64,000 nucleotides of DNA, from IMG/VR virus record IMGVR_UViG_3300028394_002801, positions 46,396-110,395 of that record, one strand, 5' to 3'. The translations under genes and the position numbers were made by a program. This DNA comes from a virus. Positions 1-39,828 of the stretch are shown here, piece by piece; position 1 is the stretch's first letter, and every line of letters begins with the position of its first letter. The notes beneath the pieces were generated by a model. The model was given only the letters and a program-made list of their open reading frames with translations. It ran no database searches and was not told the origin of the DNA.

Positions 1-2938
1 ACTGTTGGCGGACTATCTGGTCATTTTGTTCAAAAAGTAGCCTCACAGCGACCGCGGAGATTAATTTACGTGCTTGCAATAACAACCTACGAACGTTAAT
101 TCTATTTAATGCTGATTCTCTAACTTGCAAAGTTTTATTTCCCCAAATTACAGTATTCACATCAGAGAATGTTGCAATTGGATTTATTCTTCCTTGATAT
201 AAAGTATCTCTATCATCTTGTGTTAATTTTAATCTTGCTTTAACTGAATTAACCAATCCTCTATTATAACCTGCTGATGCAAACCAAGGGAATGCTACGT
301 TATCAGTTAATGCCAAATTTCTACAAACTTCTGCTGTTGGTGGAATATATACTTGGGTATTATTCACTTGGTCTCTAACCAAAATCCAAGGATAATATGT
401 TGCAGTATAATTTGAATCAATATTTGTTTCCTCCAAAGAAACAATTGATTCTTGGGGATAAATAACATTATTCACATCAGTTGTTAATAAATTTGCATCA
501 GGTGTTGTAACAATATAAATTGAATCTGCTCTATCGCTTTCAATCATATCAATTGCATTTTCAACCAAGTTGCTATTATTAATATAATCAATACCTGGTG
601 TAACAAAAATATTTATATTTGTTGATTCTGGATTTTGATATGTTAAAATTCCCTTTAAATATGCATAATAATCTGTTGTTGCAAATTCAATTGAACCATC
701 ACCATCTGTAATTTGTTTAAATGTTCCTTGTCCTGTTGCCGCTACATATTTGCCAGATACAGATAATGCACCTCTCATATAATCAATACCTCCAATTTGG
801 TATGAATCACCATTTGTTCTTCTTTCAGAATAAACATCCCATCCATCAAAACCACCCTCAAATAATAAGGTGAATTTTCTTGAATATAAGTAATAATATG
901 GATTTGAATTTGTTTCTGGTTCTGAATTAAAACTTCCACTACCAACCTCAAATGCTGTTTGACCACTTGTTGTATAACTATTTGCTATTGTAACAATTGT
1001 TGCACCTGAATCCATATGGAAACCTTTTGTCACCACATTCCATTCTGAACCATCAGAAATAATGCTTGCTGGATTTTGTTTACCCTTATAGTTTAATAAA
1101 GAATTATCATATCCATAATTTGTTGAAAATCCAAGATATGTTCTTTTTACATTATCAGCGGCTACAGCATTTGATGCTGCAAATGGTTCATTATTAACAA
1201 CCTCATTATTATAATAATATTTTGTCTTATATAATAAATTTGGTGTTAATGCACTACCATACTTTCTATGGGGATAACCCATAAATCCACAAGGAATTGC
1301 ATCAAATGGAAATTCATCACCCATTTCAAGCATAATGTATTTTGAAACCAAATTATATTTGCCATCACTTGTTCCAATCTTCTTTCCAACAAAACTATTT
1401 TGTGTTTCATCTAATGTGCAATTTGTATATTTTTCCAACACAACTGGCGCTGAATCTGAATCATAATAACTTCTAACCAATACATCAAATGTTCTATTCT
1501 TAAATGACATATTAACAATTGAAGCCTTAACTTCAGTATTTGCTGAATTTCCATCAGATATTGAAATGAATTTGAATAAGTTATAAACTTTATTTCCTCT
1601 CAATTCAGAAACAACAAATGGTGTTTTTGGTGATTGATATTTTTCAAGATACCATCCAATTGATGTACCACTACCACTTCTTGCTGATGGCAAATAAGTT
1701 AAAGTTTGTTTTAATCCTCTAATATAACCAAGTCTATATGCTTGATTTAATAATGTTGGATAATGTTCTTCAACAAATATTGGGACATCATTCCTATCTT
1801 TCCCAAAATTATCAACACCCAATACATTTGCAATATAATTTGAATTGGTATTTTTTAATGATACATTAAATGTGTAATTAGTGTTTGATGTTGTTTTTCC
1901 ACTTAAAACAAAATTACCAAATGGTGTCTCACTTATAGTTGTACTATTAGCTGTATCAATAGTTAATGCACTTAAACTATAAAGTTGACCATGATCGGTT
2001 GATGAATAATTTGTGATACCTCTTGACCTAATTGTTGCAACAACCATATCATTATAATCTGTATATGCTGTTCCAGTAAATGTATAAGTGTTACCAGTTA
2101 CTGTTCCAGTGAATGCGCCACTTGATACATTAAAACTAGATGTGTTGTAATAAAATGAATAACCTGTATAATCATTCCCAGAATTAGCAAATGTTGCATA
2201 ATACCAAAAATCATTTTCATTTGCTGGCTTACCATTACTACCCAAAGATACAGTTGTTCCAAAATAATTATATTCAGTTAATCCTGACTTTGTTGATCCT
2301 GTGATTGAATTATACACAGATACTGGTAATGAACCATAAGTTGATGTTTGACCAGTTAATGAAGTTGATAAAGCCACATCATTTGCAAATGTCTTTAAAT
2401 CATCATAGAATGTTGATGTTGAACCATTGCTTGCTGTATAAGTATCACCAGAAAATAATGCTGCACTTATACCATTTGGATATGTAGCACTTGTTATTAC
2501 AAATGTTCCAGTTGTTCCAGTTGTTCCAGTAAATACTATTGAGATAGATGGACCAACACCAGTTCCACCGGTTAAACCAACAGTTGAATGATTAACATTT
2601 GCAATTGTTGTTATTGACCAAGATGGACCAGCATCATAACCAGATAGTCCCAATACCCTTGTAACATACATTTGATTTGATTGTTGCAAATATGACTTGG
2701 CAATATATGCAGATTCATATTTTGGTATCTGTGTGTTTATATATTTTTCAGGTGATGTTCCACCAAAATAAGTTTGAAATTCATCATAACTTGTAATGAA
2801 TATAGGCTCAAATGCGGGGCCTTTGATCGTCTCACCGACCATTCCCAGTGTGGTTACACCAATACTCTGTGAAACAAAACTTAAATCTGTTTCAGAGGTA
2901 TATACACCAGGAGATACGAATACTTTTTCATTTGCCAT
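1..2938 (-). CDS. Contractile tail sheath protein (3' end runs off the window; missing from the ORF track)
   Basis: Hand translation from ATG at 2938: MANEKVFVSPGVYTSETDLSFV...GETIKGPAFEP; near position 1 the same frame reads WFASAGYNRG...RDTLYQGRINPIATF...IWGNKTLQVRESALNRINVRRLL. These are classic sheath N- and C-terminal motifs. Confidence 0.93.
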   Translation of the reverse strand, partial: MANEKVFVSPGVYTSETDLSFVSQSIGVTTLGMVGETIKGPAFEPIFITSYDEFQTYFGGTSPEKYINTQIPKYESAYIAKSYLQQSNQMYVTRVLGLSGYDAGPSWSITTIANVNHSTVGLTGGTGVGPSISIVFTGTTGTTGTFVITSATYPNGISAALFSGDTYTASNGSTSTFYDDLKTFANDVALSTSLTGQTSTYGSLPVSVYNSITGSTKSGLTEYNYFGTTVSLGSNGKPANENDFWYYATFANSGNDYTGYSFYYNTSSFNVSSGAFTGTVTGNTYTFTGTAYTDYNDMVVATIRSRGITNYSSTDHGQLYSLSALTIDTANSTTISETPFGNFVLSGKTTSNTNYTFNVSLKNTNSNYIANVLGVDNFGKDRNDVPIFVEEHYPTLLNQAYRLGYIRGLKQTLTYLPSARSGSGTSIGWYLEKYQSPKTPFVVSELRGNKVYNLFKFISISDGNSANTEVKASIVNMSFKNRTFDVLVRSYYDSDSAPVVLEKYTNCTLDETQNSFVGKKIGTSDGKYNLVSKYIMLEMGDEFPFDAIPCGFMGYPHRKYGSALTPNLLYKTKYYYNNEVVNNEPFAASNAVAADNVKRTYLGFSTNYGYDNSLLNYKGKQNPASIISDGSEWNVVTKGFHMDSGATIVTIANSYTTSGQTAFEVGSGSFNSEPETNSNPYYYLYSRKFTLLFEGGFDGWDVYSERRTNGDSYQIGGIDYMRGALSVSGKYVAATGQGTFKQITDGDGSIEFATTDYYAYLKGILTYQNPESTNINIFVTPGIDYINNSNLVENAIDMIESDRADSIYIVTTPDANLLTTDVNNVIYPQESIVSLEETNIDSNYTATYYPWILVRDQVNNTQVYIPPTAEVCRNLALTDNVAFPWFASAGYNRGLVNSVKARLKLTQDDRDTLYQGRINPIATFSDVNTVIWGNKTLQVRESALNRINVRRLLLQARKLISAVAVRLLFEQNDQIVRQQ

Positions 2939-2958
2939 TATTATTTTTTATTTATTCA

Positions 2959-2968
2959 TATAAATATC
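2959..2968 (-). promoter_or_regulatory. Putative late promoter motif GATATTTATA upstream of the sheath gene
   Basis: The same motif recurs upstream of many structural genes in the window. Confidence 0.55.
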
Positions 2969-2998
2969 TAAAAAATAATCAAAAACCATTATTGAGTT

Positions 2999-3829
2999 TT
3001 AATCTTTAATACAACGTACTGAAAGTCCATATCTTTCATCAAATGTATCAGGATAAGTTATTGTACTAGGATTTGATGCAAATGCATCAATTTGAATTGC
3101 TGTACGATCAGATGTTGTCCAAAAATAATTTTGAAATTTGAGTCCAGAGGAATCCCCAGTTTTGGATCTATTATCAGAACCTAAAGAATTAAACCCACTT
3201 GTATTAGTCCCCAATGGGGCTGCAACATACCAATAAGTTGTTCCTGGATGTCTTGCAGCAAGAGTAGTGCCAATATTTGCTATAAAAGTGTTTGCTTCAC
3301 TTAATGTTGGAATATGCCAACCTGCTGGGCATAAAGTACTTCCTGAGGTGCTTCCAGTTACAGCATATTGGTTATATAATAAACCCTCAATTGCTTTACT
3401 ATTAGAATCATCATGAACATATGCCCAATATTTACTTGACGTATTATTTGCATTTGACCAAGCGGTATTATCAACTTGTGTTGTATTGTCTAATAGTGTA
3501 CCATCTCTAAATTTTGTTGTCCTTAAACTTTCTGACATCCAAACTTGATTACCAATCTTAATTGTTCTATATCTATTACCATCACCATCTGGTGGTGTTA
3601 ATTGTGAAGCTGTACATATCTTATTTGATAACCCAGGAAATTGACAAGAAAATGTACCATACTCATTACTTATAGTTGCTGATGAATATGTGAAAGGCAT
3701 TGTCTGTGTGCCTACATTTATAGTTGTGCCAGATGGATGATTATAAGGTATTGTATACCCTGTTGCCGCATATATTGAAACATTTGCTGTCTGACCGCTA
3801 TAATTTATTGAACTTACTTGAATTGCCAT
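2999..3829 (-). CDS. Virion-associated protein with C-terminal FISUMP (Fib_succ_major) domain
   Basis: DGDGNRYRTIKIGNQVWMSESL...GLLYN...LCPAGWHIPT...GLSVRCIKD matches the Fibrobacter succinogenes major paralogous domain pattern. Confidence 0.8.
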   Translation of the reverse strand: MAIQVSSINYSGQTANVSIYAATGYTIPYNHPSGTTINVGTQTMPFTYSSATISNEYGTFSCQFPGLSNKICTASQLTPPDGDGNRYRTIKIGNQVWMSESLRTTKFRDGTLLDNTTQVDNTAWSNANNTSSKYWAYVHDDSNSKAIEGLLYNQYAVTGSTSGSTLCPAGWHIPTLSEANTFIANIGTTLAARHPGTTYWYVAAPLGTNTSGFNSLGSDNRSKTGDSSGLKFQNYFWTTSDRTAIQIDAFASNPSTITYPDTFDERYGLSVRCIKD

Positions 3830-9852: not shown

Positions 9853-9944
9853 TGTTTTTATTTATAATATATATAAATATATAGGAAGTATTAAATTGAT
9901 AATTAGTTTGATTTTTATTATATTTAAAATAATGTAAATTACTT

Positions 9945-17121: not shown

Positions 17122-17142
17122 AATATTTATCTTATAAATATA
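17122..17142. promoter_or_regulatory. Back-to-back ATATTTAT motifs serving the divergent LRR array and SOD
   Basis: aatatttat on + (17122-30) and tatatttata on - (17133-42) in a 34-bp intergenic gap. Confidence 0.5.
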
Positions 17143-17851: not shown

Positions 17852-17878
17852 TTTCTTATATTTATATATAAAAGAAAT

Positions 17879-19413: not shown

Positions 19414-22092
19414 TTAAGCATTTTCATATATTAGATTGGGATTAACATTTATTTTTTCCCAGAATTTAATCTCATCTTCTGATATTGTCATTACATCATT
19501 TAAATCATCTTGATCCTTTGCCGCATAAGGAATACCATTTATTAATTTACATTCTTCTGTTGTGAAGAATTGTCTATCAGCAGGGTCTTTTATAAGAATC
19601 CTATCCCTAATCTCTGGACTAAAAGCAACCAATAATGGACTTATCCTTTTGTTAAAAGTAACAACTGCTCTTGGCACATTATATTCCCCGGTCAAGTCAG
19701 GTGTTTTTTCAAATACATTTTGGTCAATATAATAGCAATTTAATTTAATTCCATCTTTTGTTTTTGACACATCCCCGTGCGATTGTTTTGTTCCATTATT
19801 TACATAATATATAATATCTCCAAGATTAACATGTAATTTTTCCTTTATGATTAACTCCATGTGTGCCATCTTACTTGTGGTGCTTCCTGCTTTATTTAAT
19901 GTCTTTGACCTTTTTACATAGTCTTTAACATTCTGTCTAACCCTTGCCTTGTTTGCAATTTCAATTAGGGGGATTTGCTTATTATAAACCTTTTCAAAAT
20001 AATTATAATATTCTTCAATAAATTCTTTTCCTTTACCTTCAAGCAATAACTTAACAGCAACATCAATAAATCTTTCAATATATTGGGGAAGTTTCTTTGA
20101 TTTGATTGTATTTCCTGTCAACTTTATTTTACCATCATTTTTCATAATGGCATAGTTTTTTCTTGCAAAATTAACACAAGATAACCAATGACCATCCAAA
20201 TCTAATGCCATTTCTCCCTTCATAAAAGTATCATTGTATTCTGCAACATCAGCATATATACCTTTGTAAATCTTACCTTCTTTAACTTTCCAGTTTAATC
20301 CTTTTCCAATATATTCCCTACTGCTAAAATCATCTGTTGCTGAAAAGTTAACACCATCTGTATCACAAACTAAAGGAACATAACCTCTATCCATAAAGAA
20401 TTTAATCATATGTCTTAAATATAATCTACCAGTACAAGTTATCTGTTCACCTTTATCCATCTCAGCCCAAGGGAAAACTGCTGGTGCTGATAATGAACCA
20501 AACAAAGAGTTTATGAAAATCTTTATTGGTAATTGCTTATTATCATAAGTTGCCGCAATCTTAGGATCCTTATCCTTCCACTCCTCTGCCAAATTCTTAT
20601 AATTAATCCTTGCATTTCTAAAAAATTTTAACATGCCTTCCAAAACACCAGTTATATCACAAGATGGGAATACATCGTGAGCCAATTGTATGGATGGATA
20701 TAGGGACGAGAAGTCAAGTTTATATATATTCTTTGAATACCCTACCTTAACCAATCTGGATAAACCACCCACAAAGTTTCGTTTATCCTCACTTTGGGGG
20801 ACAGCCAACTGATTATTATATGACCAAGCCAACATCAATGTCTTCCATAATCCTGCTGTCCCCATTGTGTATATCCTTTCAAAAGGTAATGGCACCATTT
20901 TTGCCAATAAGAATGATGCTTGACTAAATTCTGAATCAACTCTCATTGTCTCTTCCAAGTCATCATCAAGATATGCTTCAACAAGTTTATCACCAGAAAT
21001 TCTCTTATATACGTTTGGAAATTTAATGTCAAGACCAGGATAATCTGATGCTAATTTATATTTCCCATTCTTTATATTAAGAAAATATTCTTCTTTCTCT
21101 TGATACATTTTACCAATCTTTGTGTGTTCAATATACACACGATCTTCATCTTCTGCATTTATATATTTTGTAATATATTTAAGACCAGCAGATTTGATAT
21201 CGCTATTGATTGCTTGTGCCCTTCTTACTGAATGAATAACATCAATAACATTATATCCCCAAATAGAGGTTTGAGTGTAATTCTCAACATCACCCCCTAA
21301 TTTTAACATAGAATCCCTTCTTGTAACAGATTTTGTTGGATTTAATGATTTGCAAGCAGTTTGAACATGTATCTTTAATATCTCACATCTTTTGAAAATC
21401 CATTCCCAGTCAAACGTTGCTGAATTATAACCTGAAATAATGGTTGGTTTAATTTCATCAATAACTTTAAAAAATTCAATAATACCATTTGCCTCATCCT
21501 CTGGGTTAATGCACTCTATGATTCTGGAATAACCTTTATTGGTTTTAATTCCAATCATAAATATTCTACCATCAGTTGGTTCTAATGCTGTGGTTTCTAA
21601 GTCAAATACAAGTCTTGTTATATCATCATAAGAATCAAACCCTTTAAATAATCTTTTACCTTTGGATATTAGATATTGGTCAACAGGGGGTAGCATAATA
21701 ATTTTGGTTCTACCAATTTCACTCTTTGGGTCTAACCCCCCTTCCTTAAAGAAAGCAGTTAAATTTCTATAACCCTTTAATGACTGAACGATAAATTTCA
21801 TTCCATGTTCCAATCTTGGATGGTCATCTGTTCTTAATTTTGTTATAATAATACTATGTTTGGTCATTGCTTCCTTTTGCAAGACCTTTGACTTATTGTA
21901 GAAATTTAATGAATTTAAATTACCCACCCAACAAAATGAGGTAAAAGTATCTTTGACAATTTGTTTTCCTTTATTGGGAATTTCTTTTATCTTATAGACA
22001 CAATTGGCCATATAATCATATTCAATAGCAACAATATGTTCTTCTGGATCAGAACCATTAAGAAAATCCTCAATCTCTTGACTACTTATCAT
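19414..22092 (-). CDS. polB: Family B DNA polymerase
   Basis: Exo motifs FDLETT and GYNSATFDW; polymerase motifs DFSSLYPS, KIFINSLFG, CDTDG. Confidence 0.95.
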   Translation of the reverse strand: MISSQEIEDFLNGSDPEEHIVAIEYDYMANCVYKIKEIPNKGKQIVKDTFTSFCWVGNLNSLNFYNKSKVLQKEAMTKHSIIITKLRTDDHPRLEHGMKFIVQSLKGYRNLTAFFKEGGLDPKSEIGRTKIIMLPPVDQYLISKGKRLFKGFDSYDDITRLVFDLETTALEPTDGRIFMIGIKTNKGYSRIIECINPEDEANGIIEFFKVIDEIKPTIISGYNSATFDWEWIFKRCEILKIHVQTACKSLNPTKSVTRRDSMLKLGGDVENYTQTSIWGYNVIDVIHSVRRAQAINSDIKSAGLKYITKYINAEDEDRVYIEHTKIGKMYQEKEEYFLNIKNGKYKLASDYPGLDIKFPNVYKRISGDKLVEAYLDDDLEETMRVDSEFSQASFLLAKMVPLPFERIYTMGTAGLWKTLMLAWSYNNQLAVPQSEDKRNFVGGLSRLVKVGYSKNIYKLDFSSLYPSIQLAHDVFPSCDITGVLEGMLKFFRNARINYKNLAEEWKDKDPKIAATYDNKQLPIKIFINSLFGSLSAPAVFPWAEMDKGEQITCTGRLYLRHMIKFFMDRGYVPLVCDTDGVNFSATDDFSSREYIGKGLNWKVKEGKIYKGIYADVAEYNDTFMKGEMALDLDGHWLSCVNFARKNYAIMKNDGKIKLTGNTIKSKKLPQYIERFIDVAVKLLLEGKGKEFIEEYYNYFEKVYNKQIPLIEIANKARVRQNVKDYVKRSKTLNKAGSTTSKMAHMELIIKEKLHVNLGDIIYYVNNGTKQSHGDVSKTKDGIKLNCYYIDQNVFEKTPDLTGEYNVPRAVVTFNKRISPLLVAFSPEIRDRILIKDPADRQFFTTEECKLINGIPYAAKDQDDLNDVMTISEDEIKFWEKINVNPNLIYENA

Positions 22093-22125
22093 ATTTATTA
22101 TTTTAGGGGTAAAAATCTAAAAGTT

Positions 22126-22500
22126 TTAATTAAACTTCTTAATAAACGAATCTAAAATAATAATAGTTAATTCTTCTCTTAAAGGCAAGATGAGATCGCC
22201 ATCTTCATTTCTAATTAAAAATTCACCTTTATATATGCCAGGTGCATTTGTTTCTCTTTTCTTAAATTGATAATATATATAATATTCCACAGTTGGGGTT
22301 GGCTCTGTTGTTTCTTTTGCAACTAAATATGCTTCAGCATTTGTTATTTTATACATTCCTGTTTTAGCATCTGCCATAGAAAAGTAAATGGATGATGTTT
22401 CCAAATCCTCCATAAATTTTTTGTAATCTGACCTACCATCTTTAATTGGTTCAACTTTTAATATAGGTAAATCTGCCCCTTTCTTTATATAAAAATTCAT
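22126..22500 (-). CDS. Putative structural protein (BppU N-terminal-like Ig fold)
   Basis: FYIKKG.LPIL...YYQF...T..PGIYKGEF pattern. Confidence 0.45.
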   Translation of the reverse strand: MNFYIKKGADLPILKVEPIKDGRSDYKKFMEDLETSSIYFSMADAKTGMYKITNAEAYLVAKETTEPTPTVEYYIYYQFKKRETNAPGIYKGEFLIRNEDGDLILPLREELTIIILDSFIKKFN

Positions 22501-22605
22501 ATTTTCTTTATTATTAAATATCCAAAAAATTAAAAACTAATTTTTTAAAAAAATGGTTTGCAATTTTAATTATTTTTTGATATATTTATATATCAAAATA
22601 AAGAA

Positions 22606-23214
22606 ATGTTCAAAGAGATTAGAGAACAAATTAACAAGGTGGTGAATTGGTATCAATCTTTGATTGACAGTAAGAATTTAACCAAAGAAATTAATCATAT
22701 TTTGGAAGAAAATGGATTTTTAATCCAAGATATATATGATGTTGAGAATGTTAGTGGAATTATTAGTGCACTAAAATTATCAGAAGTATTACCACTTTAT
22801 TTATATGAAGGAATTGATTTTGAACTTGACAACTCTGGTGGTGTTATTATATTTTCCACAGATTTAAATTCCACATTAGGCAAGGCTGAAACATTTAGTG
22901 ATAAGGTTAAATTTTTCTTTGATAGTAAATGGAAGACATTTTTAAACAGATTAAATGTTAGTGATAGGCTTAAAAAAATACTATTAGATAAATATGAACA
23001 ACCTGGATTTACTTTGGGTAAAAACTTTAGAGGCGCATATAAAAGTAAAAATGGATTAACATTTAATGAAAAATCTTTTACTATTGATATTGCAGGTATT
23101 GACTCTGATGCTTTGATTTTAATTGCATCTGAAATTTGTAGAGAATTTAAACAAGAGACTGTAATGGTTAGAGATTTCAATAGAAATAAAGTACTTTTTG
23201 TTAATGATTTGTAA
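22606..23214 (+). CDS. Putative SAM-lyase-like (PII/GlnB-fold) protein
   Basis: The C-terminal half has GxY-x9-E-xS ... LIASEICREFKQETVMV, resembling the phage SAM lyase/DUF3574-type pattern. Confidence 0.45.
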   Translation: MFKEIREQINKVVNWYQSLIDSKNLTKEINHILEENGFLIQDIYDVENVSGIISALKLSEVLPLYLYEGIDFELDNSGGVIIFSTDLNSTLGKAETFSDKVKFFFDSKWKTFLNRLNVSDRLKKILLDKYEQPGFTLGKNFRGAYKSKNGLTFNEKSFTIDIAGIDSDALILIASEICREFKQETVMVRDFNRNKVLFVNDL

Positions 23215-23226
23215 AAAAAAATTAAA

Positions 23227-23616
23227 ATGAAAGAGAATTTATTAAAGGCTTCAATTTTTATGTTAGCATTTCTATTTATTGTGTTTGGTGCTAATAAGTT
23301 TTTAAATTTTATGACACCCCCACCACCAACAGATACTGGAGCACAACTTCTTATGGTAGGAATGTTTAATTCATATCTTAAAACATTAGTTGGTATTGTA
23401 GAGGTATTTAGTAGTTGTTTGTTATTATTTAGAAGAACAAGATTCTTTGGTTTTCTAATTATTATACCTATTATTTTGAATATTATTTTATATCATTTAA
23501 CAACAAATGATTTTTCAAATCCAATTATACTAATTATTGGTGTCCTTTTTGGGGGACTTTGTTATAGTCAAAAAGATGGAGTTAGAGAATTATTTAAGAT
23601 ACAATCAAATATTTAA
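23227..23616 (+). CDS. DoxX-family membrane protein
   Basis: FIVFGANKFL...VGIVEV...ILNIILYH; four hydrophobic segments. Confidence 0.8.
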   Translation: MKENLLKASIFMLAFLFIVFGANKFLNFMTPPPPTDTGAQLLMVGMFNSYLKTLVGIVEVFSSCLLLFRRTRFFGFLIIIPIILNIILYHLTTNDFSNPIILIIGVLFGGLCYSQKDGVRELFKIQSNI

Positions 23617-23680
23617 ATTCTGCCAAATCAACAAAATAAATAGAGATTTGGCAACTTATAAAAAAATTTAAGAATTAGTG

Positions 23681-23710
23681 GAAAGGGGTTGAAATTGACC
23701 CCTTTTCTTT
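23681..23710 (+). terminator. Hairpin/terminator after DoxX, overlapping the metK promoter
   Basis: gaaaggggt-tgaaattg-accccttttc followed by a T run. Confidence 0.55.
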
Positions 23711-23719
23711 TTATATTTG
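23688..23719 (+). promoter_or_regulatory. Bacteroidota-type promoter for metK
   Basis: GTTG, 20-bp spacer, TATATTTG. Confidence 0.5.
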
Positions 23720-23754
23720 GAAAGTGAATTGTTTAACTCAAAAAAATATAAATT

Positions 23755-24894
23755 ATGAAACTAATTACAGCTGAAAGCGTTTCCATTGGGCATCCAGATA
23801 AGGTTGCTGACCAAATTTCAGATGCAATACTTGATGCTTATCTAACTCTTGACCCAGATGCAAAGGTTGCTGTTGAAACACTTGTTAAAGACAATTGTGT
23901 TGTATTGGGGGGTGAAATATCCAGCACACATAGAATCAATTATGAAGAGGTTATTAAAAATACCGTAAAAGAAATTGGTTATACTAACCCAGCACATGGA
24001 TTTTATTACAAAAATATTACAATCATAAATTTGATTGGTCAGCAAAGCAGAGAAATAAATAATGCTGTTTTAAAAAATAGTGAAGAGTCACTTGGTGCTG
24101 GCGACCAAGGTTTTATGACTGGCTATGCAACAAATGAAACAAATACCTATATGCCAATTGGTATGTATGTTTCAAAGAAGTTGGTTGATTATGTGTATAA
24201 TAACATAGGATTTGGACCTGATATTAAAACACAAACAACAATTGAGTATGATGACAATACCAAAAGAATTCATACCATATTGGTATCAACTATGCATAGT
24301 GAAGATTTAACCCTATCTAATGTAAGGCAAATTATTATGAAAGGCATTAAAAATAATGATATGAATTTGGATGCTGATATTTTTGCCTTGATTGATGATA
24401 GAACCTCAATTGTTATTAACCCTGCTGGTTCTTGGAATGTTGGAGGTCCAGTTGCAGATTGTGGAGTCACAGGCAGAAAGATTGTGGTGGATCAATATGG
24501 ACCATATAACCCTGTTGGTGGTGGTGCATTTAGTGGAAAAGACCCAAGCAAAGTGGATAGAACTGGCGCATATTTAGCAAGATATATTGCAAAAAATATT
24601 GTGGCAGCAGGATATACAGATAAGTGTGCTGTTGAAATTGCTTATATGATTGGGGTGGATAAGCCAGCCTCATTAAGCATAAACACATTTGGACAGTATT
24701 CTGATGATTGGTTGGAAGGAGTTGTTTGCAGAATATTCCCCTTAACACCATCACAAATTATCAATCATTTTAAATTGAAAAGACCAATTTATCTTGAATC
24801 ATCAAGAGGTCATTTTGGAAATGATATAATGCCTTGGGAAAAATTGGATAAAATAGAAGACTTAAAACGTTTAGCCGTTATTCATAAGGGTTAA
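23755..24894 (+). CDS. metK: S-adenosylmethionine synthetase
   Basis: ESVSIGHPDK, GAGDQG, GVTGRKIVVD, GGGAFSGKDPSKVDR. Confidence 0.97.
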   Translation: MKLITAESVSIGHPDKVADQISDAILDAYLTLDPDAKVAVETLVKDNCVVLGGEISSTHRINYEEVIKNTVKEIGYTNPAHGFYYKNITIINLIGQQSREINNAVLKNSEESLGAGDQGFMTGYATNETNTYMPIGMYVSKKLVDYVYNNIGFGPDIKTQTTIEYDDNTKRIHTILVSTMHSEDLTLSNVRQIIMKGIKNNDMNLDADIFALIDDRTSIVINPAGSWNVGGPVADCGVTGRKIVVDQYGPYNPVGGGAFSGKDPSKVDRTGAYLARYIAKNIVAAGYTDKCAVEIAYMIGVDKPASLSINTFGQYSDDWLEGVVCRIFPLTPSQIINHFKLKRPIYLESSRGHFGNDIMPWEKLDKIEDLKRLAVIHKG

Positions 24895-25590
24895 ATAATT
24901 ATCAATAAAATCTGGGGGGTAGTTGGAATGAATCATTTTCTTAACTACCTCCTGTATTTTTTCCTCACGTGATAATCTTGGATTGGTGCTTAATCCATTT
25001 TCTATTGTATAACCAATCATATCACTTGTTGGCAATTTGTATTCTTTCTTTTCTTCTTTTGATTTAAGTCCCCCAATCTTTTCCCACACAACTACAAGCA
25101 AAGAACCATCATGCCATTTATACATCATTCCTTTGTATCCCATTTTTTCAAGCATACTTGACATATAAATGACCTGCATCTGATATGGTACATTATCACT
25201 ACCATATTTTTTTGCTGCGATATCATAGAGATTTAGGGGGTCAGCGTTGAATGGATATAAGTCACTTAATTTAACATCTACTTCATATAATGTGCCAGAA
25301 ACAATTCTTTCCTTCTGGTTTAAATTTGTATAAAAGAATATTCTTTTCTTACCCCACCATTGTTCTGAACTGGTATAACTATTCTCACCAAATTTAAGGG
25401 GATCCAAATATTCTAAATTGGATGGGCCAAAATGATATAACTTAACATATTCACCATCTGTTTCCAATTGAGAAAGCCACCTATCATTAAATAAGTGGCT
25501 ATCTGGTTTTTCTGGTAAATCATTTGCCTCATCTTCTTCGGAAATGACCATTATTTTTTTAATTCTAAAAATCTCTTCTTGTAAATTCAT
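24871..25590 (-). CDS. Putative ADP-ribosyltransferase-fold (ART-PolyVal-like) protein
   Basis: LYHFG...IFFYT...LYEVDV...LEKMGYKG; N-terminal MNLQEEIFRIKKIM leader. Confidence 0.45.
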   Translation of the reverse strand: MNLQEEIFRIKKIMVISEEDEANDLPEKPDSHLFNDRWLSQLETDGEYVKLYHFGPSNLEYLDPLKFGENSYTSSEQWWGKKRIFFYTNLNQKERIVSGTLYEVDVKLSDLYPFNADPLNLYDIAAKKYGSDNVPYQMQVIYMSSMLEKMGYKGMMYKWHDGSLLVVVWEKIGGLKSKEEKKEYKLPTSDMIGYTIENGLSTNPRLSREEKIQEVVKKMIHSNYPPDFIDNYLTLMNNG

Positions 25591-25629
25591 ATATAATAAA
25601 TATCATATAAATATCATATATTATGAATT

Positions 25630-39773: not shown

Positions 39774-39828
39774 TTATAATTATATTACGATAAATAGTAT
39801 TTAATTGATATTTATGATAAAAAGTAAA

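What the first reader, a model, noticed from the sequence alone, without database searches (positions are those of the whole stretch)
22581..24894. SAM-lyase-like gene beside a phage MetK: possible destroy-then-resupply control of SAM
Seen: ORF 22606 ends in FRGAYKSKNGLTFNEKSF...LIASEICREFKQETVMV. It is preceded by the late-type motif (22581-90) and starts with a helical leader. metK lies two genes downstream with its own host-type promoter. Established: phage SAM lyases (T3 SAMase, Svi3-3) are PII-like trimers with conserved Tyr, Glu and Gln-(Glu/Asp) residues; they counter SAM-dependent defences (type I R-M, BREX), and the T3 enzyme binds host MetK. Inference: a late-made, possibly packaged lyase depletes SAM at entry, and a phage MetK then restores SAM for phage methyltransferases such as ORF 26933. 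Alternatively, the protein is a SAM-binding regulator of MetK.
Basis: inference. Interest (0 to 1): 0.8.

Follow-up and report, generated by a model that had tools for sequence, protein, structure and literature searches.

The report
Phage SAM lyase beside phage MetK
A large freshwater phage carries a gene that almost certainly makes an enzyme destroying the methyl donor SAM, a known phage trick against host DNA defences. It sits near the phage's own SAM-making gene, but the closest relatives do without it, so the two do not form a fixed module.

Summary
ORF 22606-23214 (202 aa) exists, and metK (23755-24894) is the second gene downstream.

**SAM lyase reading: supported.**
- The predicted fold matches Svi3-3 SAM lyase far above generic PII/CutA proteins (Z 12.3 against about 7.5).
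- A family profile aligns to Svi3-3 with every ligand residue kept: G143, Y145, E155, S157, Q183, E184.
- A trimer model passes its controls.
- Pfam PF23780 matches only below its cut-off, so this is a divergent branch (478 clusters) with an extra helical N-terminus of about 65 aa.

**Fixed "destroy-then-resupply" module: not supported.**
- The gene lies in a variable cargo slot. Relatives with 91-97% identical PolB keep metK without it, and one keeps it three genes away.
- A 270-kb, 90%-complete relative lacks this family.
- One lake metagenome holds a clean deletion of the ORF.
- None of 80 other phage metK loci has this family nearby. One other lineage does place a DUF3293 (lyase-related) gene directly after metK.

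**Regulation.**
- The upstream 11-mer TATATTTATAT is a real gene-start element shared with sheath and baseplate genes. "Late" timing and virion packaging remain untested.

This scan has already noted SAM lyase with MetK in several other phage genomes.

The parts
22581..22591 (+). Promoter-like gene-start element TATATTTATAT, 14 nt before the lyase ATG. A TTTGCA box lies 18 nt upstream, at 22557.
   Evidence: The same 11-mer (at most 1 mismatch) lies 8-21 nt before about 20 gene starts in the contig. These include the tail sheath, the gp25-like baseplate gene, a virion structural operon, the RNR small subunit and a homing endonuclease. It is conserved before the lyase in relative L001.
22606..23214 (+). 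SAM-lyase-family gene, 202 aa
22606..22803 (+). N-terminal extension, residues 1-66. Predicted helical, and absent from Svi3-3 and T3 SAMase.
   Evidence: H2-21, H23-35, H52-69; pLDDT low at residues 40-66. It is variable or missing in relatives. No similar leader occurs on other ORFs of the contig.
22804..23211 (+). PII-like SAM lyase core, residues 67-202
   Evidence: VIA-align against 6zm9: Z 12.3, rmsd 3.0 over 113 residues, model 67-202. Foldseek against 6zm9: E 1e-5 with both models.
23032..23040 (+). Gly143-Ala-Tyr145, equivalent to Svi3-3 Gly56 and Tyr58
   Evidence: Profile alignment to 6zm9_A. Conservation is G 77/78 and Y 72/78 in alignment A2. Residues 140-146 lie in the predicted subunit interface.
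23068..23076 (+). Glu155-Lys-Ser157, equivalent to Svi3-3 Glu69 and Ser71
   Evidence: Conservation is E 68/78 and S 77/78. E69Q and E69A cut Svi3-3 activity 1500- to 4500-fold (PMC7877911).
23152..23157 (+). Gln183-Glu184, equivalent to Svi3-3 Gln104 and Glu105
   Evidence: Conservation is Q 77/78 and E 58/78. T3 SAMase aligns Q-D at this position.
23227..23616 (+). 129-aa membrane protein with sub-threshold MauE/DoxX matches. It is co-transcribed with the lyase by position.
   Evidence: It is kept next to metK in L021, L022 and L029 (80% identity) and partly in L001.
23621..23707 (+). Two hairpins that end the lyase-DoxX unit. The arms of the first are at 23621-23629 and 23645-23653. The second is a G+C-rich stem at 23680-23707 followed by a T run.
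   Evidence: Both are conserved in L001, L021 and L023. No Rfam riboswitch was found.
23712..23719 (+). TATATTTG box about 35 nt before the metK ATG. It fits the TAnnTTTG pattern that I recall as the Bacteroidota -7 element.
   Evidence: It is conserved in L001, L021 and L023.
23755..24894 (+). Phage S-adenosylmethionine synthetase (MetK), 379 aa
   Evidence: PF00438, PF02772, PF02773. It is 59-89% identical to MetK on other IMG/VR phage contigs and at most 47% identical to any bacterial hit.

Best explanation
ORF 22606-23214 encodes a catalytically competent, homotrimeric SAM lyase of the Svi3-3 type, with an extra helical N-terminal extension of about 65 aa. It most likely cleaves S-adenosylmethionine to 5'-methylthioadenosine and homoserine lactone, at sites formed between subunits by G143/Y145, E155/S157 and Q183/E184. 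This would deprive SAM-dependent host defences (type I R-M, BREX) of their cofactor. It is an accessory counter-defence cargo gene. It sits in a hypervariable slot between the PolB module and the conserved (DoxX-)metK genes. It is read from the phage's own TATATTTATAT gene-start element and ends at a double hairpin, while metK has a separate promoter. Its nearness to metK comes from where the cargo slot lies, not from an obligate two-gene circuit. Shown here: fold, motif conservation, a trimer model, gene order in relatives, and presence/absence polymorphism. Inferred: the substrate, the products, the defence targets and the timing.
For: Fold:
- AF2 model (pLDDT 82) against PDB: 6zm9 Svi3-3 scores Z 12.3 (rmsd 3.0, 113 aa) and 6znb Z 11.3. 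SAM-AMP lyase 9gad scores 8.6, SAM lyase 9lqd 8.3 and generic PII/CutA about 7.5.
- By Foldseek the top four hits are Svi3-3 and T3 SAMase.

Sequence:
- The profile of 78 family representatives hits Svi3-3 (E 0.0077) and T3 SAMase (E 0.071) as the two best PDB sequences. The alignment places G143, Y145, E155, S157, Q183 and E184 on Svi3-3 G56, Y58, E69, S71, Q104 and E105.
- These are the residues that PMC7877911 names as conserved and ligand-binding.
- They are 74-99% conserved across the 78 representatives.
- hhalign against T3 SAMase gives E 1e-4 with the same motifs aligned.
- PF23780 hits 24 of 29 close relatives, best E 1.7e-6.

Trimer:
- Three copies of residues 60-202 score ipSAE 0.66 against 0.00 for the best of 3 controls.
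- That mark was reached by 20 of 30 proteins solved as pairs of one chain and by 1 of 23 solved as single chains.
- The runs agree in at least 74% of contacts, and the partner's pLDDT is at least 69.
- Trimers of this family are solved, so the pass may reflect likeness. My own alignment and three copies also differ from the calibration.
- The interface includes 140-146, 157, 159 and 185-189.

Accessory status:
- Gene orders in close relatives.
- No family member in a 90%-complete 270-kb relative (positive control).
- A clean deletion joining 22655 to 23214 in a contig of run X7 that is otherwise about 99% identical.
- 0 of 80 IMG/VR metK loci carry the family within 10 kb.
Against: - The Pfam score of this copy is 18 bits, below the 28-bit cut-off. 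No assay exists for any member of this branch.
- About half of the 114 close homologues carry Lys in place of the key Glu, so catalysis is not universally kept in the branch. This copy has Glu.
- A phage that makes SAM and also destroys it looks wasteful.
- A promoter type shared with virion genes is odd for a counter-defence that T3 expresses first (PMC8406200 abstract).
- A DUF3293 (lyase-related) gene lies directly after metK in another phage lineage. Earlier notes of this scan also report such pairs. Both argue that lyase-MetK pairing may be more than positional.
Confidence: 0.6

Rival explanations
1. Coupled SAM circuit. The lyase is made late, is perhaps packaged and injected, and strips SAM at entry. 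The phage MetK, read from a host-type promoter, then restores SAM for phage methyltransferases.
For: - The two genes are 540 nt apart here. They have different promoter-like elements, and a terminator lies between them.
- The lyase motif is shared with sheath, baseplate and virion genes.
- L001 keeps both genes in one slot.
- In L025-L028 a DUF3293/PF23780-like gene directly follows metK. This is a possible non-orthologous version of the pair.
- Earlier notes of this scan report lyase-MetK pairs in other phages. These are unchecked leads.
- The phage encodes at least one methyltransferase-like domain (ORF 26933).
Against: - Five close relatives keep metK without the lyase, and a 90%-complete relative lacks the family.
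- A natural deletion strain exists.
- No other family locus with usable flanks has metK nearby.
- The motif also precedes the RNR small subunit and a homing endonuclease, so 'late' is not established.
- The N-terminus is not shared with any other ORF, and its I-R-E is not conserved in relatives.
- No prohead protease is present on the contig, which is 36% complete.
Confidence: 0.2
2. The enzyme is a lyase for a SAM conjugate, not for SAM itself. The candidate is SAM-AMP, the second messenger of CorA-type type III CRISPR systems. It would then be an anti-CRISPR that leaves the SAM pool, and the phage MetK, untouched.
For: - SAM-AMP lyases share this fold (9gad Z 8.6).
[quoted passage not shown] It does not cleave SAM (PMC12255297).
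- This reading would remove the paradox of making and destroying SAM.
Against: - Svi3-3 fits much better than the SAM-AMP lyase in structure (Z 12.3 against 8.6). The SAM-AMP lyase is not among the PDB sequence hits.
- The Tyr58 and Glu105 equivalents are kept here. According to PMC12255297, only Glu and Gln are structurally conserved between the two enzyme types.
[quoted passage not shown] Svi3-3 has Gly64 and Ile108 at these positions. This rests on offsets.
Confidence: 0.1
3. The protein is a non-catalytic or weakly catalytic PII-like SAM binder. It would sense SAM or bind and regulate MetK, host or phage, as T3 SAMase binds E. coli MetK.
For: - PII-like proteins are ligand-sensing regulators.
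- T3 SAMase forms complexes with MetK (PDB 7ock and 8bb1 titles; PMC8406200 abstract).
- Half of the close homologues have lost the key Glu yet remain conserved and full-length.
- The extra N-terminal region could be a partner-binding part.
Against: This copy keeps the complete catalytic and ligand set, GYESQE. Linkage to metK is not conserved.
Confidence: 0.07

Closest known systems
Svi3-3 SAM lyase from an environmental phage (PDB 6ZM9, 6ZMG, 6ZNB; PMC7877911)
   Same: The fold matches (Z 12.3). A trimer is predicted, with conserved residues at the subunit interface. G-x-Y, E-x-S and Q-E align residue for residue, and the loop between Tyr and Glu is of similar length (10 against 11 residues).
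   Different: Identity is only 17-18% over the core. This protein has an extra N-terminal extension of about 65 aa and an extra helix at 118-129. No activity has been measured.
Phage T3 SAMase, gene 0.3 (PDB 7OCK, 8BB1)
   Same: It belongs to the same superfamily (Foldseek E 2e-3; hhalign E 1e-4). G-x-Y, E-E-K and Q-D align with the motifs here. It is a phage-encoded counter to SAM-dependent defences.
   Different: T3 expresses it first, from host promoters, and it also inactivates host MetK by binding. Here the gene has the promoter type of virion genes and lies next to a phage MetK. MetK binding was not tested.
Clostridium botulinum SAM-AMP lyase and phage AcrIIIB4 (PDB 9GAB, 9GAD; PMC12255297)
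   Same: It has the same PII-like fold and the same Glu and Gln. [quoted passage not shown]
   Different: The structural match is weaker (Z 8.6). The positions of the Cys and Thr typical of SAM-AMP lyases hold Gly and Met here, as in Svi3-3. Tyr and Glu of the SAM lyase site are kept.
Pfam DUF3293 (PF11697)
   Same: DUF3293 proteins of related phages also match PF23780 below its cut-off, over the same region, and show G-x-F/Y, E-K-S and Q-x-S motifs. One lies directly after metK (L025-L028) and one in tandem with a lyase homologue (L004).
   Different: hhalign between the two families is weak (probability 18%, E 0.0014). The window protein does not match DUF3293.
PII and CutA1 trimeric proteins
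   Same: They share the ferredoxin-like core and the trimeric assembly.
   Different: They score only Z of about 7.5 and share no sequence motifs. They are ligand sensors, not lyases.

Membership tests
Phage SAM lyase (Svi3-3 / T3 SAMase; Pfam PF23780) | PII-like ferredoxin fold closest to solved SAM lyases | tested here: met
   6zm9 Z 12.3 and 6znb Z 11.3, against about 7.5 for PII/CutA. Foldseek top hits are 6zm9, 6znb and 7ock.
Phage SAM lyase (Svi3-3 / T3 SAMase; Pfam PF23780) | Conserved ligand residues: Gly56, Tyr58, Glu69, Gln104 and Glu/Asp105 (Svi3-3 numbering) | tested here: met
   G143, Y145, E155, Q183 and E184 by profile alignment to 6zm9_A. They are conserved in 58-77 of 78 representatives.
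Phage SAM lyase (Svi3-3 / T3 SAMase; Pfam PF23780) | Homotrimer with active sites between subunits | tested here: met
   This is a model only. ipSAE is 0.66 against 0.00 for the best of 3 controls. The mark was reached by 20 of 30 solved homo-pairs and by 1 of 23 single chains. The runs agree in at least 74% of contacts, and the pLDDT is at least 69. The pass may reflect likeness to solved trimers. The motif residues lie in the interface.
Phage SAM lyase (Svi3-3 / T3 SAMase; Pfam PF23780) | Score above Pfam's gathering cut-off (28 bits) | tested here: not met
   18.1 bits, E 0.0028. 24 of 29 relatives match, best E 1.7e-6. Five relatives carry a precomputed PF23780 hit. This is a divergent branch at the edge of the model.
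Phage SAM lyase (Svi3-3 / T3 SAMase; Pfam PF23780) | Converts SAM to MTA and homoserine lactone | not testable with these tools
   A biochemical assay is needed.
T3-type SAMase specifically | Binds and inactivates MetK | not tested
SAM-AMP lyase (CorA-associated type III CRISPR; AcrIIIB4) | Strictly conserved Cys five residues before the catalytic Glu, and Thr four residues after the Gln that contacts adenine | tested here: not met
   Gly150 and Met187 occupy these offsets, as Gly64 and Ile108 do in Svi3-3 (alignment; definitions). The offsets assume no gaps, so this is a sequence inference.
S-adenosylmethionine synthetase (MetK), for ORF 23755-24894 | Three MetK domains | tested here: met
   PF00438 5e-36, PF02772 4.5e-26, PF02773 8e-52. 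The GHPDK, GAGDQG and GGGAFSGKDPSKVDR motifs are visible in the translation.
Conserved lyase-MetK gene module | Adjacency kept across relatives | tested here: not met
   Adjacency occurs only in the window and in L001. It is absent in L021-L024 and L029 and in 80 phage metK loci. One strain has the lyase deleted.

The most novel reading that the evidence does not exclude
The lyase and the phage MetK are two arms of a timed SAM-control circuit. A Svi3-3-type lyase, made with the virion genes and possibly carried into the next cell, collapses host SAM to disarm SAM-dependent defences. An old, phage-lineage MetK then rebuilds SAM for phage use. Different phage lineages would reach the same pairing with different lyase-superfamily genes: this family here, and DUF3293 in L025-L028.
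Probability: 0.2. Interest if true: 0.7.

Novelty: new member of a known kind. Interest (0 to 1): 0.45.

Why it matters
SAM lyases are a proven phage counter to type I restriction and BREX, but only a handful have been characterised.

- **A large unannotated branch.** This work places 478 clusters at 50% identity, almost all metagenomic "hypothetical proteins", in the Svi3-3 family, with the residue map needed to test them.
- **A natural experiment.** Nearly identical lake phages exist with and without the gene.
- **An unusual setting.** The gene has a virion-type promoter and lies next to a phage MetK. This bears on whether phages manage SAM in time rather than simply destroying it.
- **A possible change of function.** A sub-branch with Lys in place of the catalytic Glu points to a change of substrate or role.

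Tried and rejected
Gene context came from the search for related loci instead.
- The IMG/VR scan with the family pattern found no relative.
- tblastn against 50,697 phage records gave only one hit, at E 0.7.
- The profile of close relatives (A1) did not hit SAM lyases in PDB. It hit a methionine adenosyltransferase at E 0.013, over residues 53-111. The broader profile (A2) did not reproduce this, so I treat it as chance or a shared beta-alpha unit.
- Rfam at E up to 1 over 22000-25600 found no riboswitch before metK. The only match was a sub-threshold 6A RNA at the promoter motif.
- No T4-type prohead protease (PF03420) was found on the contig. The family rang in no control genome and the contig is 36% complete, so this shows nothing.
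- No ORF of the contig shares the lyase's N-terminal sequence.
- phmmer with T3 SAMase against ORFs of the 80 metK loci found nothing. This search is insensitive.
- The profile of the DUF3293-type genes (A3) found nothing in PDB.
- The metatranscriptome run X20 holds two perfect 151-nt contigs inside metK and none listed on the lyase. Contigs of an RNA library cannot show transcription or its absence.
- The bacterial genome scan with MetK gave at most 47% identity across many phyla, so it gave no host clue.
- The window has no tRNA genes.
Full report
**What is there.**
- The window is the right-hand 64 kb of a 110,395-bp IMG/VR virus contig with 30.6% G+C. CheckV estimates it as 36% complete.
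- It is a large contractile-tailed phage. It encodes a tail sheath, gp25-like and gp6-like baseplate proteins, a gp19-like tube protein, PolB, a DnaB-like helicase and both RNR subunits.
- Downstream lie a 129-aa membrane protein with sub-threshold MauE/DoxX matches (23227-23616) and then metK (23755-24894), which has all three MetK domains.

**The protein is a SAM lyase relative.**
- On its own it matches Pfam PF23780 (S-AdoMet_lyase) only weakly: 18 bits against a cut-off of 28, E 0.0028, residues 139-199.
- 24 of 29 close relatives match the same model, best E 1.7e-6. Five relatives carry a precomputed PF23780 hit.
- An exhaustive profile search found 478 clusters at 50% identity with E of 1e-3 or better. 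The shared core covers about residues 56-197.
- A profile of 78 diverse representatives (A2) finds Svi3-3 (E 0.0077) and T3 SAMase (E 0.071) as the two best sequences in the PDB.
- The printed alignment puts G143, Y145, E155, S157, Q183 and E184 on Svi3-3 Gly56, Tyr58, Glu69, Ser71, Gln104 and Glu105.
- The Svi3-3 paper names exactly these as the conserved, ligand-contacting residues. Gly56, Glu69 and Gln104 are strictly conserved, and E69Q/A lowers activity 1500- to 4500-fold (PMC7877911).
- Across the 78 representatives the counts are G 77, Y 72, E 68, S 77, Q 77 and E 58.
- hhalign of A2 against T3 SAMase, taken from the T3 record, gives E 1e-4 with G-C-Y, E-E-K and Q-D aligned to the same columns.

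**Fold and assembly.**
- With the shallow alignment the AF2 model had pLDDT 70. With A2 it had 82, and above 90 over most of the core.
- Both models gave Svi3-3 (6zm9) as the top Foldseek hit at E of about 1e-5, followed by 6znb and T3 SAMase 7ock.
- VIA-align gave 6zm9 Z 12.3 (rmsd 3.0 over 113 of 129 residues; model 67-202) and 6znb Z 11.3.
- The next hits were the SAM-AMP lyase 9gad at 8.6 and a further SAM lyase 9lqd at 8.3. The mass of PII, SbtB and CutA1 proteins scored about 7.5. The match to Svi3-3 therefore stands clear of the generic fold.
- Three copies of residues 60-202 were modelled as a complex. The score was 0.66 against 0.00 for the best of 3 controls.
- That mark was reached by 20 of 30 proteins solved as pairs of one chain and by 1 of 23 solved as single chains.
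- The runs agree in at least 74% of contacts, and the partner's pLDDT is at least 69.
- Trimers of this family are solved, so the pass may reflect likeness. The job also differs from the calibration (own alignment, three copies).
- The confident interface contains 140-146, 157, 159 and 185-189. These are the motif residues, as expected for sites between subunits.
- Residues 1-66 are an extra helical part of low to middling confidence. Svi3-3 and T3 SAMase lack it, and it varies among relatives.

**SAM or SAM-AMP?**
- SAM-AMP lyases of CorA-type type III CRISPR systems share the fold.
- A phage example (AcrIIIB4) has an N-terminal domain and its Glu at position 158, and it does not cleave SAM (PMC12255297).
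- That paper states that only Glu71 and Gln108 are structurally conserved with Svi3-3. [quoted passage not shown]
- Counting from the aligned Glu and Gln, this protein has Gly150 and Met187 at those offsets, like Svi3-3 (Gly64, Ile108). It also keeps the Tyr and the second Glu.
- Together with Z 12.3 against 8.6, this favours SAM as the substrate. It is an inference from sequence, not a test.

**The upstream motif.**
- TATATTTATA is at 22581-22590.
- In the whole contig, 45 sites match TATATTTATAT with at most one mismatch. About half lie in the 2.9% of the DNA that is intergenic.
- Those intergenic sites point at a gene, mostly 8-21 nt before its ATG.
- Genes behind it include the tail sheath, the gp25-like baseplate gene, the operon with a virion structural protein, an adaptor-like gene, and several large unknown proteins.
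- It also precedes the RNR small subunit (one mismatch) and a homing endonuclease.
- PolB, the helicase, the RNR large subunit, metK and the long right-hand operon lack it.
- The element is therefore real, and its link with virion genes fits a late class. Timing is not shown.
- It is kept before the lyase in the relative L001.
- Two hairpins follow the DoxX-like gene, the second terminator-like. Then comes TATATTTG, about 35 nt before the metK ATG. All three features are conserved in L001, L021 and L023.
- No riboswitch was found.

**Linkage to metK.**
- A metagenome scan gave 17 loci with family members. Only L001 (81% identical lyase, PolB 93%) also has metK.
- Its gene order is orf22126 | 1107-aa outer-membrane beta-barrel | lyase | HMA-domain protein | 270 aa | DoxX-like | metK.
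- The other loci with usable flanks have no metK. Five share a 116-120-aa unknown gene just downstream instead.
- In the reverse direction, 80 IMG/VR metK loci with 10-kb flanks contain no member of this family. The HMM control was positive.
- Among these, the nearest relatives of this phage show:
  - orf22126 | 1114-aa beta-barrel | DoxX | metK in L021, L022 and L029 (PolB 96.5% identical);
  - orf22126 | 1107-aa beta-barrel | metK in L023 and L024 (PolB 91.5% identical).
- The record behind L024 is 270 kb and 90% complete. It has no member of the family (positive control on the own genome).
- The phage occurs in freshwater metagenomes of more than a dozen studies.
- In run X7 a 4.3-kb contig, otherwise about 99% identical, joins 22655 to 23214. 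This removes the lyase ORF and keeps the DoxX-like gene and metK. Runs X2 and X3 hold the intact gene.
- The lyase is therefore facultative cargo in a variable slot, while metK is the constant neighbour.
- MetK itself is 59-89% identical among phage contigs but at most 47% identical to any bacterial hit in the genome-collection scan. It is an old resident of this phage group.

**A point in favour of coupling.**
- The 270-kb relative has, far from metK, a 200-aa DUF3293 protein that also matches PF23780 below its cut-off.
- Homologues of it lie directly after metK in L025-L028, whose MetK is 72-74% identical to this one.
- DUF3293 proteins show G-x-F/Y, E-K-S and Q-x-S in the aligned places. 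hhalign to this family is weak, however (E 0.0014, probability 18%).
- L004 has a lyase homologue and a DUF3293-type gene in tandem.
- Earlier notes of this scan, which are unchecked, describe lyase-MetK pairs in several other phage genomes, some with a riboswitch or a capsid-targeting leader. I looked for both here and found neither.
- I therefore give a real functional link about one chance in five, and an obligate module much less.

**Verdict.**
- The protein is best filed as a divergent member of the known phage SAM lyase family with an added N-terminal part. It most likely acts as an accessory counter-defence enzyme.
- The destroy-then-resupply circuit and virion packaging remain speculation.
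- About half of the 114 close homologues have Lys, not Glu, at the catalytic position. This copy has the full GYESQE set.

Noticed in passing
Homologues P0024-P0109; loci L002, L006, L010-L014: Of 114 close homologues, 57 carry the full signature G-Y-E-S-Q-E. 31 have Lys in place of the catalytic Glu (GYKSQ[EK]). About 20 short (about 147-aa) forms have Ser, His and Lys (SHKSQ[EA]). The Lys forms are full-length and conserved, which suggests a changed substrate or role rather than decay.
   Followed up: partly
L025:8835-9500, L026:11179-11835, L027:7329-8000, L028:3034-3705; L103:1237-1839 (-): A DUF3293 (PF11697) protein that also matches PF23780 below its cut-off lies directly after metK in four IMG/VR contigs. 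In the 270-kb relative it lies far from metK. DUF3293 may be a branch of the SAM lyase superfamily.
   Followed up: partly
L001:4573-7896, L021:6074-9418, L023:6464-9787: Close relatives of this phage encode a 1107-1114-aa outer-membrane beta-barrel protein (CarboxypepD_reg + OMP_b-brl_4, TonB-dependent-receptor-like) in the slot where the window has the lyase. L001 adds an HMA-domain protein. This is an unusual phage cargo.
   Followed up: no
window 22655-23214, in run X7: A lake metagenome contig holds a clean deletion of the lyase ORF. It leaves the promoter motif and a short stub in a strain about 99% identical elsewhere.
   Followed up: partly
Whole contig; for example window 2958-2968, 9871-9881, 17132-17142, 17857-17867, 25605-25615: TATATTTATAT lies 8-21 nt before about 20 start codons, which implies very short leaders. 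The right-hand operon (39814-63592) lacks it, apart from a one-mismatch copy at 39775.
   Followed up: partly
L016:389-2686 with 2834-3385; L017:377-1867 with 2015-2565: Distant lyase homologues (38-39% identity) sit directly after an N6 DNA methylase gene (PF02384). In L017 the lyase frame is split.
   Followed up: no
P0124 (1069 aa), P0115 (462 aa), P0139 (1566 aa), P0231 (771 aa): Fused forms of the family exist. P0124 has a sub-threshold PF23780 match at 177-231 and the family-profile match at 504-651, with weak nucleotidyltransferase matches between them at about 292-349. P0115 carries a WG_beta_rep repeat. In P0139 the domain is at the C-terminal end of a 1566-aa protein.
   Followed up: no
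window 22762-22938 (residues 53-111): The close-relative profile matched the C-terminal domain of a methionine adenosyltransferase (6rjs, residues 277-339) at E 0.013. The broader profile did not reproduce this.
   Followed up: partly
window 23755-24894: The phage MetK is at most 47% identical to any bacterial hit in the genome-collection scan, yet 59-89% identical on many IMG/VR contigs. It is a long-standing phage lineage of MetK, not a recent host capture.
   Followed up: partly
It is more likely a glycan-modifying enzyme than a DNA methyltransferase.
   Followed up: no
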